Source of the DNA: Escherichia coli
GTDB lineage: Bacteria; Pseudomonadota; Gammaproteobacteria; Enterobacterales; Enterobacteriaceae
Assembly (NCBI RefSeq): GCF_044324875.1
Contig: NZ_CP172185.1
Direction: 5' to 3' (one strand)
DNA length: 64,000 bases
Within the stretch, counting starts at the first letter, position 1. The number at the start of each line of letters is the position of its first letter. A program made the position numbers. Positions 58,701 through 61,700 of this stretch are shown in pieces.

Positions 58701-61700
58701 TGTTGTCGGTATTGTTCAGTACTGTGCGTTGTGAGCGTATTCGTTATCAGACAGAGGGGCAGGGAACAAACGTCAGAGGTTAAGGATATCCGGGAACAAA
58801 TGGCGTAAACGGACATCTCAGTGCCTGAGAAACAGTACAGGTCAGGCCATCATGGCCTGCAAACAGAGCCCTGGCGACCCCGTGGCCGAAAACGAAACAA
58901 TAACCCGCGCGCAGTGCGAGGAATCCGGATGTGAAGCAATCAGCAGGTAATATTAATGGCAGGACCAGCAGGTTCTTTAAACAAACGAACATGCTGTAAT
59001 TGATATTTTGCTTATTGTATTTTCTTTTTAGTTATTAAATTAATTTATTTACGAAAAATTTTCTGCAGATACAGGATGGGAATTCAGGGTGTCATCACGC
59101 CTTATGATGACACCCTTCCCCTGGTTGTGGAAAACCGAAGGATATATCAGGTTCAGCAACAAAATCAGTGAGCTGAAAGATACCAGTCCCCCAGCTTCAG
59201 CAGCTTTCACGTAAACATAAACAGGGCTCAATGAATATCTGATTGCTCCAGTTACCTTCTTTAATTCGTTCCAGCAAAACATTTCCTGCTTCCAGACCAA
59301 TTTTCCTGTGAGGAACGGCCATTGTTGTTAATGATGGTTGGCAAACTTTGCTGACGTCACTGTCACCAAATCCTACTACGGCGAGCTCGTCTGGAACTTT
59401 GATCCGTCTTCGTTGACATTCATAGAGAACACCGCAGGCTAACTCATCTGACACACATACCAGGGCATCCAGTTCCGGCCATGCGAGCAAAAATTCCGGT
59501 AGTTGTGATGCTCCGGTGGAAAAAACAGGTGGCAGAGCAGCGTTAATAACACGGTTGGGAGACATATGATGGCGTAACATAGCTTTATACCATCCCTGTA
59601 AATGCTGCTGAAAGATCCACTGTTCCTGGTTAGCGCATAGCAAACCGATATTCTGATAACCACGTTGTACCAGCATATCCGTCAGCTCGAACATTGCTGC
59701 AACATTATCAATACCAATGTTGATATCTATCGGATCAGTACGAATGGCACCGATTTCTATAACAGGAATCGAGGCATTTTTGAGCAAGTGACGCACGGTA
59801 CTATTATGCTCAACACTAAGCAAAATTGCTGCAGCGATATTAGAAGCCAGCAGGGTTTCCAGCAGTTTTTCTTCTTGTTCCAGACGATGGCGTGACTCAG
59901 CCAGGATTATTTGATACCCCGCTGGTTGTAGCACATGTTGCAGCCCGGCAAACATTTCCGTGCATCCCGCTTCAGCCAGGTTTGGCACGACCATTGCGAT
60001 CGTGTGTGAAGATGCCGATGCCAGTGCGCTTGCAGTGAGGTTGGGCATATACCCTAATTCATTAACTGCGGCTTCAATCTTCTCCCTCAATTTATCTGAA
60101 ACTTGTTCGGGAGTGCGTAACGCTCTGGATACAGTCATTGTGCCAACTCCCGCGAGTTGCGCGACATCAGCAATAGTGACTTTACCTGTACTACGACGTT
60201 TTCGGGTTATTGCCATACAAAATCCTGCTCAGCGACTACATATGGAGATCTTTTATTACTTATCATCAACGGCTTCCTGCACTGCCAGTAGCAGAGTATA
60301 CCTCTTAATATCTGCCATAAGTCTGGATTTAATCAGTGAAATCTATTTTGATAGCGCTATCACAAATTCGAACAATACCTCCTGATAGCGCTATCTTTGT
60401 GATATTGATCGCAGATATACCGTCGTTACTTGAATACATTCTGGTCATATAAATAAGAAATTAGGGGGTGGGAGTGCTTAATATCTGGCTTTCTGATTCA
60501 ACAATCGCATTACGAAAGAATGCCGCAACCTGGCAGCAGGCATTAGATATCTGTGCCAGACCGTTACTGGATGCAGAGATAATTACGACGGATTATCTCA
60601 GTGCGATAAAGACACAACATGAAAAACTGGGGCCTTATTATGTCCTGGCACCCGGGCTGGCCATGCCGCATGCCCGACCAGAAGAAGGGGCAAAAGGATT
60701 AGGTTTATCATTATTAAAACTTGAAGAAGGTGTCAGTTTTCATACAGAGGAATTTGATCCTGTAGATGTTATCATTTTACTTGCCGCACCAGACAAACAC
60801 AGTCATATCGAAATGATATCTGCACTGGCTGAGTTATTCTCCAGCGAAAAAGATTTACATGAATTGCATCAGGCTCGCAATGTGGAGGAAATAAAAAAGA
60901 TAATTTCACGGTTCTGATTACATTATAAATTCAGTCTTTTCACAACATTGCGCCGTTGCGTGATGGGACTTCTTCAACTTAAAATGGTGAATATAATGAA
61001 AATTATGGCTATTTGTGGCTCAGGGCTTGGTAGTAGTTTTATGGTCGAAATGAATATTAAAAAAGTTCTGAAAAAAATGGATATAGAGGCGGAAGTGGAA
61101 CATTCCGATCTCTCATCAGCAACGCCAGGGGCTGCCGATTTATTTGTGATGGCCAAAGATATTGCTGCCAGTGCCAGCGTACCGGAAAGTCAGTTGGTGG
61201 TTATCAACAACATCATTGATATTAATGAACTCGAAACGCAACTGCGTAACTGGTTAGCAAAACAATAACCTTAATTGAAGCGAGGTGGATATGTTTATCC
61301 TTGAAACGCTGAATTTTGTTGTTGATATACTTAAAGTGCCCGCGATACTGGTCGGCTTGATTGCCTTAATTGGTCTGGTTGCCCAGAAAAAATCTTTTTC
61401 AGATGTTGTTAAAGGTACAATTAAAACTATTCTCGGCTTTATTGTACTGGGCGGTGGTGCCACTGTTTTGGTTGGTTCGTTAAATCCTCTTGGGAGTATG
61501 TTTGAACATGCCTTTAATATTCAGGGCATCATTCCGAATAATGAGGCTATTGTTTCTATTGCGCTGGAAAAATATGGCGCATCGACGGCCCTTATTATGG
61601 CATTTGGTATGGTGGCGAATATTATTGTTGCCCGCTTTACCCGCCTTAAATATATCTTCCTGACCGGACACCACACATTTTACATGGCCTGCATGATTGG

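What the first reader, a model, noticed from the sequence alone, without database searches (positions are those of the whole stretch)
60349..60395. Paired perfect palindromic operators for the LacI-family regulator
TGATAGCGCTATCA (a perfect 14-bp palindrome with a central CG, as expected for LacI-family sites) occurs twice, 34 bp apart, between the divergent regulator gene and the PTS EIIA gene. Two operators could permit cooperative binding or looping and point to tight repression of the downstream PTS/transketolase operon.
Basis: seen in the sequence. Interest (0 to 1): 0.45.

Follow-up and report, generated by a model that had tools for sequence, protein, structure and literature searches.

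The report
Conserved repressor sites beside CRP promoter
Two copies of a short DNA palindrome between a sugar-transport operon and its neighbouring regulator gene are almost certainly that regulator's binding sites; this is an ordinary kind of bacterial gene switch, already predicted in related species, though the sites sit upstream of an activator (CRP) site rather than on the promoter itself.

Summary
Site 1 (60349-60362) is the perfect palindrome TGATAGCGCTATCA. Site 2 (60383-60396) is TGATAGCGCTATCT, a 13/14 match.

A 14-bp palindrome alone is not unusual: the window has 6 and about 4 are expected. The second copy 34 bp away (p about 4e-5) and the conservation are decisive.
- In 80 orthologous loci from other Enterobacterales, site 1 is invariant and site 2 varies at one base only.
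- Surrounding intergenic DNA is only 50-63% conserved.
- The motif also follows most 39-49% identical relatives of the regulator into other promoter layouts.

The interpretation (cognate LacI-family operators) is well supported. Lac-style looping is not: the regulator lacks a tetramerisation helix, and the spacing is 34-35 bp and not fixed.

It lies 37 nt before a conserved -10 hexamer, which gives class II geometry (CRP at -41.5). The operators then sit near -57.5 and -91.5, so repression probably works by blocking CRP activation. That step is inferred.

The regulator appears orthologous to Salmonella STM2345, which is RegPrecise's predicted SgaR and is also named PagR. Verdict: a real but ordinary feature, a new member of a known kind.

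The parts
59197..60216 (-). LacI-family regulator gene (339 aa), GntR/IdnR-like branch. Probable orthologue of Salmonella STM2345 (RegPrecise 'SgaR'; 'PagR').
   Evidence: Pfam LacI + Peripla_BP. NCBIfam best hits are GntR/IdnR, below their cut-offs. RefSeq annotation. In Salmonella the cassette sits between yfcC and yfcD. RegPrecise table.
60295..60300 (-). Putative -10 hexamer (TATACT on the minus strand) of the regulator gene. Inferred TSS near 60288.
   Evidence: TATACT is present in 74/81 orthologous regions. In 65 of those 74 it keeps a fixed distance to O1, putting the O1 centre at -67.5. Block identity is 0.85. The -35 is poor. Inferred, not mapped.
60349..60362 (.). Operator O1: TGATAGCGCTATCA, a perfect palindrome with central CG. 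The flanking CA (60363-60364) is also invariant.
   Evidence: Invariant in 81/81 orthologous loci. The same 14-mer lies next to three of the 39-49% identical relatives.
60383..60396 (.). Operator O2: TGATAGCGCTATCT (13/14), the weaker, asymmetric copy.
   Evidence: It reads TG[G59/A22]TAGCGCTATCT in 81/81 loci. Start-to-start distance from O1 is 34 bp in 65 loci and 35 bp in 16.
60395..60416 (.). CRP-like site. Core TGTGA-TATTGA-TCGCA at 60398-60413, centre 60405.5. The 22-bp site overlaps the last 2 bp of O2.
   Evidence: TGTGA is perfect in 68/81 loci, with 1 mismatch in the rest. The right half is TCACA, TCGCA or TCACG. The N6 spacer is variable: identity 0.49 against 0.97 and 0.85 for the half-sites. 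The O2 centre is 16 bp from the CRP centre in 81/81 loci. Binding was not tested.
60435..60440 (+). Putative -10 hexamer of the PTS operon promoter (TACATT here, TAAAGT in most species).
   Evidence: A -10-like hexamer lies 37 nt after the TGTGA start in 77/81 loci and 38 nt in 2. PWM scores are 5.1-5.4 bits. Block identity is 0.87.
60447..60447 (+). Inferred transcription start: the A of the conserved TCAT. It places CRP at -41.5, O2 at -57.5 and O1 at -91.5.
   Evidence: Geometry derived. Not mapped experimentally; uncertainty is about 1-2 nt either way.
60474..60917 (+). PTS EIIA (PTS_EIIA_2) gene, first gene of the operon (GTG start as in RefSeq).
   Evidence: Found in 78 of 80 loci.
60996..61268 (+). 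PTS EIIB gene.
61291..62679 (+). PTS EIIC gene of the ascorbate (SgaT/UlaA, EIIC-GAT) family.
62676..63506 (+). Transketolase N-terminal subunit gene.
63499..64000 (+). Transketolase C-terminal subunit gene, cut by the end of the window.
   Evidence: RefSeq annotation in L001, mapped onto the window. Conserved in 72 loci.

Best explanation
O1 and O2 are the cognate operators of the divergently encoded LacI-family dimeric repressor. This regulator belongs to the SgaR/PagR orthologous group, a paralogue of GntR/IdnR. It controls the EIIA-EIIB-EIIC-TktN-TktC operon. The operon promoter is most likely a class II CRP-dependent promoter. It has a CRP site centred at 60405.5 (-41.5), a -10 hexamer at 60435-60440 and a TSS near 60447.

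O2 (-57.5) abuts and slightly overlaps the CRP site. O1 (-91.5) is the perfect, presumably high-affinity copy. A repressor bound at O2, possibly helped by O1, would stop CRP or the RNA polymerase alpha-CTD from working. This is anti-activation, as GalR does at OE next to the gal CRP site. A phosphorylated sugar made by the PTS would release the repressor. O1 keeps a fixed distance to the regulator's own -10 and may serve autoregulation.

Shown: the sites, their conservation, the adjacency to a CRP-like site, and the gene content. Inferred: TSS positions, CRP binding, repression by anti-activation, and the inducer.
For: Operator form and regulator features:
- The sites are palindromes with a central CG lying between a LacI-family gene and a PTS operon.
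- The regulator has the HTH and hinge Leu65, equivalent to LacI L56. Its recognition helix TMTVSRA is almost invariant in 81 orthologues; the only change is T26 to S in 6.

Conservation across Enterobacterales:
- 80 orthologous loci carry a regulator 73-96% identical, and the divergent cassette is conserved.
- O1 is invariant and O2 varies at one base in 81/81 sequences.
- Column identity is 1.00 and 0.98, against 0.50-0.63 for the flanks.

Distant relatives (39-49% identity):
- Most carry the same motif next to the TF gene.
- One has a single perfect site between the promoter and the RBS of EIIA (L090).
- One has a site overlapping the -35 and spacer (L089).
- One has three sites spaced 21 and 13 bp apart, followed by the same CRP/-10 module (L088).
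- A clade with HTH change G25S has TGTTAGCGCTAAC instead (L084, L091).

CRP module:
- TGTGA-N6-TC(A/G)C(A/G) has conserved half-sites and a variable spacer.
- The offset to TAAAGT is fixed at 37 nt.
- The distance from O2 is fixed at 16 bp.

Literature:
- Tandem LacI-TF sites occur at about 20% of regulated operons, and 72% of the TFs are autoregulated (PMC4052901).
- The orthologous TF STM2345 is listed as the LacI-family regulog 'SgaR'.
Against: - No binding, TSS or expression data were available, so CRP at -41.5 rests on a -10 hexamer of only about 5 bits.
- With that TSS, neither operator overlaps a core promoter, which is atypical for LacI-family repressors.
- The distance of 16 bp (1.5 helical turns) between the O2 and CRP centres would put the two proteins on opposite faces. 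Co-occupancy, or even cooperation, is therefore not excluded.
- The 34/35-bp spacing is not an integral number of helical turns and is not fixed, which argues against obligatory dimer-dimer cooperativity.
- Citing papers describe the Salmonella orthologue (PagR) as an activator of SPI-2 genes, so pure repression is not guaranteed.
- The invariant CA after O1 is not explained by a symmetric repressor site.
Confidence: 0.55

Rival explanations
1. Classical steric repression of an upstream sigma-70 promoter. The -35 would be the TTGATA formed by O1 (60348-60353) and the -10 would be AACAAT (60371-60376), with the TSS at O2. One dimer would then sit on the -35 and one on +1.
For: The consensus scan finds exactly this promoter-like site (9/12 matches). 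TTGATA is present in 69/81 orthologues. In the distant relative L089 the operator does overlap the -35 and spacer of the likely promoter.
Against: The -10 between the operators is no better than shuffled inter-operator sequence: mean 1.2 against -0.1 +/- 3.1 bits, and only 3.7% of loci reach 4 bits against 10% of shuffles. The inter-operator DNA is poorly conserved (0.63). This model leaves the strongly conserved CRP-like site and the TAAAGT block, which would lie at about +22 to +60, without a role. The scan expected 1.5 such hits by chance.
Confidence: 0.15
2. The regulator acts as an activator or dual regulator from these upstream sites, as Cra or GalR do at P2. It might co-activate with CRP or activate its own poorly equipped promoter.
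For: Both sites lie upstream of both inferred core promoters: -57.5 and -91.5 for the PTS operon, and -67.5 and -101.5 for the regulator. The regulator's promoter has a poor -35 (AGCAAA). Papers citing Jiang 2020 describe STM2345/PagR as up-regulating SPI-2 genes.
Against: In distant relatives the same motif sits in plainly repressive positions: between the promoter and the RBS in L090, and over the -35 and spacer in L089. Local LacI-family sugar regulators are overwhelmingly repressors (PMC4052901). A position of -67.5 is out of phase with the usual activator positions.
Confidence: 0.12
3. The repeated palindrome acts as a nucleic-acid structure (an RNA hairpin, attenuator or terminator formed by O1 pairing with O2) or as the site of an unrelated protein, not as operators of the neighbouring regulator.
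For: O1 and O2 can pair in a 13-bp stem (-25.9 kcal/mol, z = -5.3). The A/G variation at O2 position 3 would keep pairing (U-A or U-G).
Against: Such pairing follows trivially from repeating a palindrome. Each site alone folds no better than shuffles (z = -0.2 and -0.3). There is no Rfam match. The region lies upstream of both inferred TSSs, so it is probably not transcribed. Distant relatives have one or three sites at other spacings, which cannot form the same hairpin. The motif changes together with the TF's HTH.
Confidence: 0.03

Closest known systems
RegPrecise regulog 'SgaR' (LacI family, Enterobacteriales; representative STM2345 of S. Typhimurium LT2), from Ravcheev et al. 2014, PMC4052901
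   Same: Apparently the same orthologous TF. It is a LacI-family regulator next to an sga-type (ascorbate-family) PTS operon. In Salmonella the six-gene cassette lies between yfcC and yfcD, which fits the locus tags STM2340-2345. Nine regulons and an entry of 34 (apparently sites) fit about two sites per divergon.
   Different: That work is a computational prediction in 12 reference genomes. The motif itself is not in the text I could read, so its identity with TGATAGCGCTATCA is unverified. The E. coli copy sits on an accessory island found in 133 of 5,426 complete genomes. RegPrecise's 'ascorbate utilisation / ascorbate-6-P' label is doubtful, because the operon carries a split transketolase (or Rpe in other lineages) and no visible Ula catabolic enzymes.
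PagR (STM2345) of Salmonella Typhimurium (Jiang et al. 2020, Cell Microbiol, PMID 31610610; known to me only through citing papers)
   Same: Same locus tag as the RegPrecise SgaR representative, so probably the orthologue of this regulator.
   Different: It is described as a PhoP/PhoB-induced activator of SPI-2 expression. As far as I could see it is not described as the repressor of the neighbouring PTS/transketolase operon. The paper is not held, so I could not check whether a binding motif was reported.
GalR at operator OE next to the CRP site of galP1 (E. coli gal operon); architecture recalled from established knowledge
   Same: A dimeric LacI-family repressor without a tetramerisation domain binds upstream of a class II CRP site. 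In gal, OE is at -60.5 and CRP at -41.5. Here O2 is at -57.5 and the CRP-like site at -41.5.
   Different: The second gal operator (OI) is intragenic, 113 bp away, and looping needs HU. Here the second operator is 34-35 bp further upstream, too close to loop. The geometry here is inferred, not mapped.
GntR and IdnR of E. coli (nearest characterised paralogues)
   Same: They are the best NCBIfam and PDB matches. Tandem or overlapping GntR operator pairs are known (PMC4052901). The G25S clade uses TGTTAGCGCTAACA, which resembles my recollection of the GntR operator (from memory, not checked here).
   Different: Scores are far below the GntR and IdnR equivalog cut-offs (270 against 400 bits, and 225 against 500), so this is a separate orthologous group. 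It has a different half-site (TGATAGC) and a different target (PTS plus transketolase).
CytR-CRP anti-activation promoters (deoP2, cdd), from established knowledge
   Same: A LacI-family protein acts at a promoter with CRP at about -41. The other bound position lies near -91, and O1 plus its invariant CA reads TGATA-N6-TCACA, which resembles a weak CRP site.
   Different: CytR binds weak sites and depends on contacts with CRP. Here both sites are strong palindromes of one motif, and there is no evidence that CRP binds at O1.
lac O1/O2/O3 looping by tetrameric LacI
   Same: Several operators for one LacI-family protein at one operon.
   Different: This regulator has no tetramerisation helix. 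The 34/35-bp spacing is too short and is variable.

Membership tests
LacI-family transcription-factor operator | Even-length palindrome with a central CG pair | tested here: met
   O1 TGATAGC|GCTATCA is perfect and O2 is 13/14, both with central CG. The criterion is from PMC4052901.
LacI-family transcription-factor operator | Located in the upstream region of a regulated operon, typically 30-140 bp before the start codon, next to the TF gene | tested here: met
   The O1 end is 112 bp and the O2 end 78 bp upstream of the EIIA start at 60474. The LacI-family gene is divergent.
LacI-family transcription-factor operator | Neighbouring TF has a LacI-type HTH, a hinge helix with the intercalating leucine, and a periplasmic-binding-protein-like core | tested here: met
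   Pfam LacI, Peripla_BP_1 and Peripla_BP_3. The alignment to LacI puts L65 opposite LacI L56.
LacI-family transcription-factor operator | Site conserved at orthologous loci while the surrounding non-coding DNA diverges | tested here: met
   Both sites are retained in 81/81 sequences. Identity is 1.00 and 0.98 against 0.50-0.63 for the flanks.
LacI-family transcription-factor operator | Motif follows the TF lineage and co-varies with its DNA-reading residues | tested here: inconclusive
   The same or a near-identical motif lies beside five of the 39-49% identical relatives, in different layouts. The G25S clade (L084/85, L091) has TGTTAGC. L092 keeps only the TGATA arms. The co-variation is probably one evolutionary event.
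LacI-family transcription-factor operator | Direct, sequence-specific binding by the TF, relieved by an effector | not testable with these tools
   Needs EMSA or footprinting with purified protein. No such data were found in the held literature.
SgaR (RegPrecise) / PagR (STM2345) orthologous group | Regulator is the orthologue of STM2345 | tested here: inconclusive
   The S. enterica subsp. arizonae copy (87% identical) lies in a six-gene cassette between yfcC and yfcD, which fits STM2340-2345. The LT2 sequence itself was not available for comparison.
SgaR (RegPrecise) / PagR (STM2345) orthologous group | Binding motif equals the RegPrecise SgaR motif | not testable with these tools
   Only the summary table rows are held. 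The motif is not given there.
Loop-forming operator pairs of tetrameric LacI type | TF carries a C-terminal tetramerisation helix | tested here: not met
   The protein is 339 aa. The alignment to LacI ends at LacI residue 306, and there is no counterpart of residues 340-360.
Loop-forming operator pairs of tetrameric LacI type | Operators far enough apart and in fixed helical phase | tested here: not met
   The centre-to-centre distance is 34 bp in 65 loci and 35 bp in 16.
Class II CRP-dependent promoter | TGTGA-N6-TCACA-like site with conserved half-sites | tested here: met
   The window has TGTGA-TATTGA-TCGCA. TGTGA is perfect in 68/81 loci. The spacer is variable: 0.49 against 0.97 and 0.85 for the half-sites.
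Class II CRP-dependent promoter | Site centred near -41.5 relative to the TSS | tested here: inconclusive
   A fixed 37-nt offset to a conserved -10-like hexamer (77/81 loci) implies -41.5 if the TSS lies 7 nt after the hexamer. The TSS is not mapped.
Class II CRP-dependent promoter | CRP-cAMP binding and crp-dependent expression | not testable with these tools
   Needs experiments.

The most novel reading that the evidence does not exclude
The repressor works purely as an anti-activator. Its operators are interleaved with CRP sites. O2 abuts the -41.5 CRP site at an invariant 16 bp. O1 with its unexplained invariant CA forms TGATA-N6-TCACA near -91. The repressor would then switch the operon off by evicting or disabling CRP rather than by blocking RNA polymerase. 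The same motif would also give the DNA-recognition code of Salmonella PagR. That would make it testable whether PagR's reported control of SPI-2 is direct or a side effect of a sugar-PTS repressor.
Probability: 0.3. Interest if true: 0.45.

Novelty: new member of a known kind. Interest (0 to 1): 0.3.

Why it matters
The analysis gives a precise operator motif and promoter model for an uncharacterised PTS/split-transketolase cassette. The cassette is core in many Enterobacterales and rides on a pathogenicity-type island, next to ireA, in a minority of E. coli, many of them ExPEC/APEC. The model is conserved across 81 sequences. It predicts catabolite (CRP) control plus a sugar-specific repressor. 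It also shows a conserved layout in which a LacI-family repressor sits upstream of the activator site. Finally, it links the locus to Salmonella STM2345/PagR, so the motif can be used to search for direct PagR targets. None of this changes current understanding of LacI-family regulation. It is a well-behaved example.

Tried and rejected
- tkt1 island: I first took the locus for the tkt1 island of APEC O1 (PMC3349570). I rejected this because that island has a full-length tkt1 and a glucose-type IIBC.
- Upstream promoter: I tested for a sigma-70 promoter with its -35 inside O1. The -10 is no better than shuffles.
- RNA explanations: there is no Rfam hit. The single sites fold like shuffles, and O1:O2 pairing is a trivial consequence of the repeat.
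- Further motif copies: I searched 0.98 Mb of orthologous loci. Outside the intergenic region there were 11 hits with 2 or fewer mismatches, against about 3 expected. Nine of them are one conserved near-match about 1.5 kb past the regulator's start codon. In the two loci I read it lies inside the yfcD coding sequence (for example GGATTGCGCTATCA), so I judged it coding conservation rather than a site.
- Motif string in the literature: a full-text search found only unrelated uses, namely HhaI substrates and a streptococcal cre site.
- Papers not held: the PagR paper (PMID 31610610) and the Salmonella tktC paper (PMC6065166).
- Regulator's -35 region: I looked for a CRP or other known site there. 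I found only a non-conserved TGTGA-AA-TCACA palindrome in some species and did not pursue it.
- Not possible with these tools: a genome-wide regulon search in E. coli or Salmonella.
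Full report
**Observation.** The window is E. coli DNA. The 2.15-kb region around the finding occurs at 99% identity or more in 133 of 5,426 complete E. coli genomes, always on the chromosome. In APEC IMT5155 it lies on an accessory island near ireA, flanked by IS remnants and CP4-type prophage genes.
- Site 1 (O1, 60349-60362) is the perfect palindrome TGATAGCGCTATCA.
- The second copy (O2, 60383-60396) is TGATAGCGCTATCT, a 13/14 match, so 'occurs twice' is slightly overstated.
- The window holds no other copy with 2 or fewer mismatches.
- Perfect 14-bp palindromes are not rare: the window has six and about 3.9 are expected.
- A second copy with 1 or fewer mismatches inside a 250-bp intergenic region has p of about 4e-5.

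**Genes.** The minus-strand gene 59197-60216 encodes a 339-aa LacI-family protein with LacI HTH, Peripla_BP_1 and Peripla_BP_3 domains. Its best matches are GntR and IdnR models and a GntR structure, all well below the equivalog cut-offs, so it is a separate orthologous group. The divergent operon is as follows:

| Gene | Coordinates |
|---|---|
| EIIA | 60474-60917 |
| EIIB | 60996-61268 |
| EIIC, ascorbate family | 61291-62679 |
| Transketolase N-terminal subunit | 62676-63506 |
| Transketolase C-terminal subunit | 63499 onward, cut by the window end |

**Phylogenetic footprint.** One scan of species-representative genomes returned 80 loci. They come from Escherichia, Citrobacter, Klebsiella, Raoultella, Enterobacter, Kosakonia, Lelliottia, Cedecea, Mixta, Mangrovibacter, Salmonella (arizonae), Serratia, Rahnella, Erwinia and others. 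The regulator in them is 73-96% identical. The divergent six-gene cassette is present wherever the contig reaches far enough.
- O1 is identical in all 81 sequences.
- O2 reads TG[G in 59, A in 22]TAGCGCTATCT in all 81.
- The start-to-start spacing is 34 bp in 65 and 35 bp in 16.
- Column identity is 1.00 for O1 and 0.98 for O2, against 0.63 between the operators and 0.50-0.62 in the other non-coding stretches.
- The recognition helix TMTVSRA is almost invariant; the only change is T26 to S in 6 of the 81 orthologues.

A CRP-like site follows O2 after one T: TGTGA-N6-TC(A/G)C(A/G), at 60398-60413 in the window.
- The half-sites are conserved (0.97 and 0.85) and the 6-bp spacer is free (0.49). 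This is the pattern expected of a CRP site.
- Thirty-seven nt after the start of TGTGA, 77 of 81 loci carry a -10-like hexamer (38 nt in 2 more). It is TAAAGT in most and TACATT at 60435-60440 here, scoring about 5 bits. A conserved TCAT follows.
- If transcription starts at the A of TCAT (60447), CRP is centred at -41.5, which is class II geometry. O2 is then at -57.5 and O1 at -91.5.
- The O2 centre is 16 bp from the CRP centre in all 81 sequences.

On the regulator side, a minus-strand TATACT (60295-60300) is present in 74/81 sequences. In 65 of those 74 its distance to O1 is the same, putting the O1 centre at -67.5. Its -35 is poor. The 1-bp indel that distinguishes 34 from 35 lies between O1 and O2. 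The region therefore behaves as two modules: regulator promoter plus O1, and O2 plus CRP plus PTS promoter.

**Testing the alternative promoter.** The consensus scan proposed TTGATA (inside O1), 17 bp, then AACAAT. Across the 81 sequences the -10 in that position is no better than shuffled inter-operator DNA. I rank this promoter as a rival, not the main model.

**Distant relatives.** A search of the 50%-identity cluster representatives gave full-length relatives at 39-49% identity. I fetched their contexts and read their upstream regions; the HTH segments are.

| Locus | Identity | HTH segment | Sites and layout |
|---|---|---|---|
| L083 | 49% | identical to the window's | TGATAGCGCTATCA followed by CA |
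| L088 | 43% | GVGSMTVSRALR | Three sites: TGATAGCGCTATCA, TGGTAGCGCTATCA 21 bp on, aGGTAGCGCTATCA 13 bp further; then TGTGA-N6-TCGCT and TAAAGT, again at offset 37 |
| L089 | 44% | GTGTMTVSRALR | Two sites 34 bp apart, no CRP site; the proximal site overlaps the -35 and spacer of a TACATT promoter |
| L090 | 44% | GVGAMTVSRVIR | One perfect site between the promoter and the EIIA ribosome-binding site |
| L086 | 43% | GVGSMTVSRALR | No PTS neighbour; TGATAGCGCAATCA 51 nt before its own start codon |
| L084/L085 | 45% | G25S (GVS[T/A]MT..) | EIIA-EIIB-EIIC-Rpe operon; TGTTAGCGATAACA and TGTTAGCGCTAACT 33 bp apart, then TGCGA-N6-TCACA and TACATT |
| L091 | 40% | G25S (GVS[T/A]MT..) | TGTTAGCGCTAACT |
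| L092 | 39% | identical to the window's | Keeps only the arms (TGATA-AAAC-TATCA) |

The motif therefore follows the TF clade through different promoter architectures. Two of those architectures are classical repressive positions. The motif also changes symmetrically in the clade whose HTH differs. This is good comparative evidence that the neighbouring regulator is the binding protein and that it represses. The co-variation is probably a single evolutionary event, so I rate it as supportive rather than conclusive.

**Mechanism.** Shown: two conserved LacI-type sites, an abutting conserved CRP-like site, a conserved -10-like block, and a regulator with the HTH and hinge leucine (L65, equivalent to LacI L56) but without LacI's tetramerisation helix.

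Inferred: the operon has a class II CRP-dependent promoter. A repressor at O2 (-57.5) interferes with CRP or with the alpha-CTD. This resembles GalR at OE (-60.5) beside the gal CRP site (-41.5), a comparison drawn from established knowledge. A sugar phosphate produced by the PTS would be the inducer. O1, the perfect copy, may raise local occupancy or autoregulate the divergent gene.

Lac-style looping is excluded. The protein has no tetramerisation domain, and the spacing is short and varies by 1 bp. The spacing of 34-35 bp is also near, but not at, the 32-bp peak reported for tandem LacI-TF sites (PMC4052901). Cooperativity is therefore possible but unproven.

**Prior knowledge.** Ravcheev et al. 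2014 (PMC4052901) list a RegPrecise regulog 'SgaR'. It is a LacI-family regulog in Enterobacteriales with representative STM2345 of S. Typhimurium LT2. It is labelled ascorbate utilisation with predicted effector ascorbate-6-P, and covers 12 genomes and 9 regulons, with a further entry of 34.

In S. enterica subsp. arizonae the cassette lies between yfcC and yfcD. Six genes there fit STM2340-2345 with the regulator as STM2345. The LT2 sequence itself was not available, so this equivalence is inferred. Papers citing Jiang et al. 2020 also call STM2345 PagR, an activator of SPI-2 expression induced by low Mg2+ and low phosphate. That paper is not held.

The same review reports that about 20% of LacI-TF-regulated operons have more than one site and that 72% of the TFs are autoregulated. 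The finding is thus an instance of a known kind and was probably already predicted for the orthologues. The CRP adjacency and the PagR link are the only mildly new points.

**Rivals and loose ends.** An RNA or DNA structure is unlikely. There is no Rfam hit. The single sites fold like shuffles, and O1:O2 pairing (-25.9 kcal/mol) follows trivially from repeating a palindrome. The region also lies upstream of both inferred starts.

An activator or dual role cannot be excluded, given the upstream positions and the PagR reports. The invariant CA after O1 (81/81, against T at the symmetric position) is unexplained. It creates TGATA-N6-TCACA, a weak CRP-like site near -91.

**Verdict.** The feature is real and the operator assignment is right. 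Novelty: a new member of a known kind. Interest is about 0.3.

Noticed in passing
window 60363-60364: The CA immediately right of O1 is invariant in 81/81 orthologues, although the symmetric position on the left is T (69/81). A symmetric repressor site does not explain this. Together with O1 it reads TGATA-GCGCTA-TCACA, with a perfect CRP half-site. The same CA follows the site in the 49% identical relative L083 and in L088.
   Followed up: partly
window 60294-60308 (minus strand TATACT at 60295-60300): A conserved block GAGTATACGCCTTAA lies on the regulator side. It is probably the regulator's -10 (74/81 loci; same distance to O1 in 65 of those 74) with a very poor -35 (AGCAAA). That suggests dependence on an activator. 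Citing papers say the Salmonella orthologue is induced via PhoP/PhoB, but no PhoB or PhoP box was identified here.
   Followed up: partly
L082 (E. coli 23CRST013, NZ_AP045773.1), insertion at window 60226-60234: A 1,329-bp IS4-family element (annotated ISVsa5, IS10-like) with a 9-bp target duplication is inserted 10-18 bp upstream of the regulator's ATG. It separates the regulator gene from its promoter and operators while leaving O1, O2, the CRP-like site and the PTS promoter intact. This is a natural candidate for a derepressed allele.
   Followed up: partly
L084/L085 and L091 versus the window operon (61291-64000): In 40-45% identical relatives the same regulator/EIIA-EIIB-EIIC module is followed by ribulose-phosphate 3-epimerase instead of the split transketolase. 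No Ula catabolic enzymes are present in either lineage. The PTS substrate is therefore more likely a pentulose or other ketose feeding the pentose-phosphate pathway than ascorbate, contrary to the RegPrecise label.
   Followed up: no
L088 positions 179-242 of the reverse-complemented intergenic region: A distant relative has three tandem sites at 21-bp and 13-bp spacings, matching the 22- and 13-bp peaks reported for tandem LacI-family sites. They are followed by the same CRP-like site and TAAAGT at the same 37-nt offset.
   Followed up: partly
L010, L013, L014, L027, L030, L034, L041, L050, L072 (about 1.5 kb downstream of the regulator start): A near-match to the motif (for example GGATTGCGCTATCA or TGATTGCGCTATCA) recurs at this position. 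In the two loci I read (L013, L041) it lies inside the 5' part of the convergent yfcD (Nudix hydrolase) coding sequence. It is probably coding conservation, not a site.
   Followed up: partly
window 55284-58400: Upstream of the regulator lie island-type genes: YagK/YfjJ-domain proteins, an AlpA-like HTH and a ProQ/FinO-family gene. In APEC IMT5155 ireA and IS256/IS3 remnants lie nearby. In E. coli the cassette is therefore horizontally acquired, whereas in Salmonella arizonae (L024) it sits between yfcC and yfcD; several other genera also have yfcD beside the regulator.
   Followed up: partly
window 60340-60420: Because O2 repeats a palindrome, O1 and O2 can pair as a 13-bp stem (-25.9 kcal/mol, z = -5.3), and the CRP-like site forms a second hairpin. 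This is probably irrelevant, since the region lies upstream of both inferred transcription starts.
   Followed up: yes
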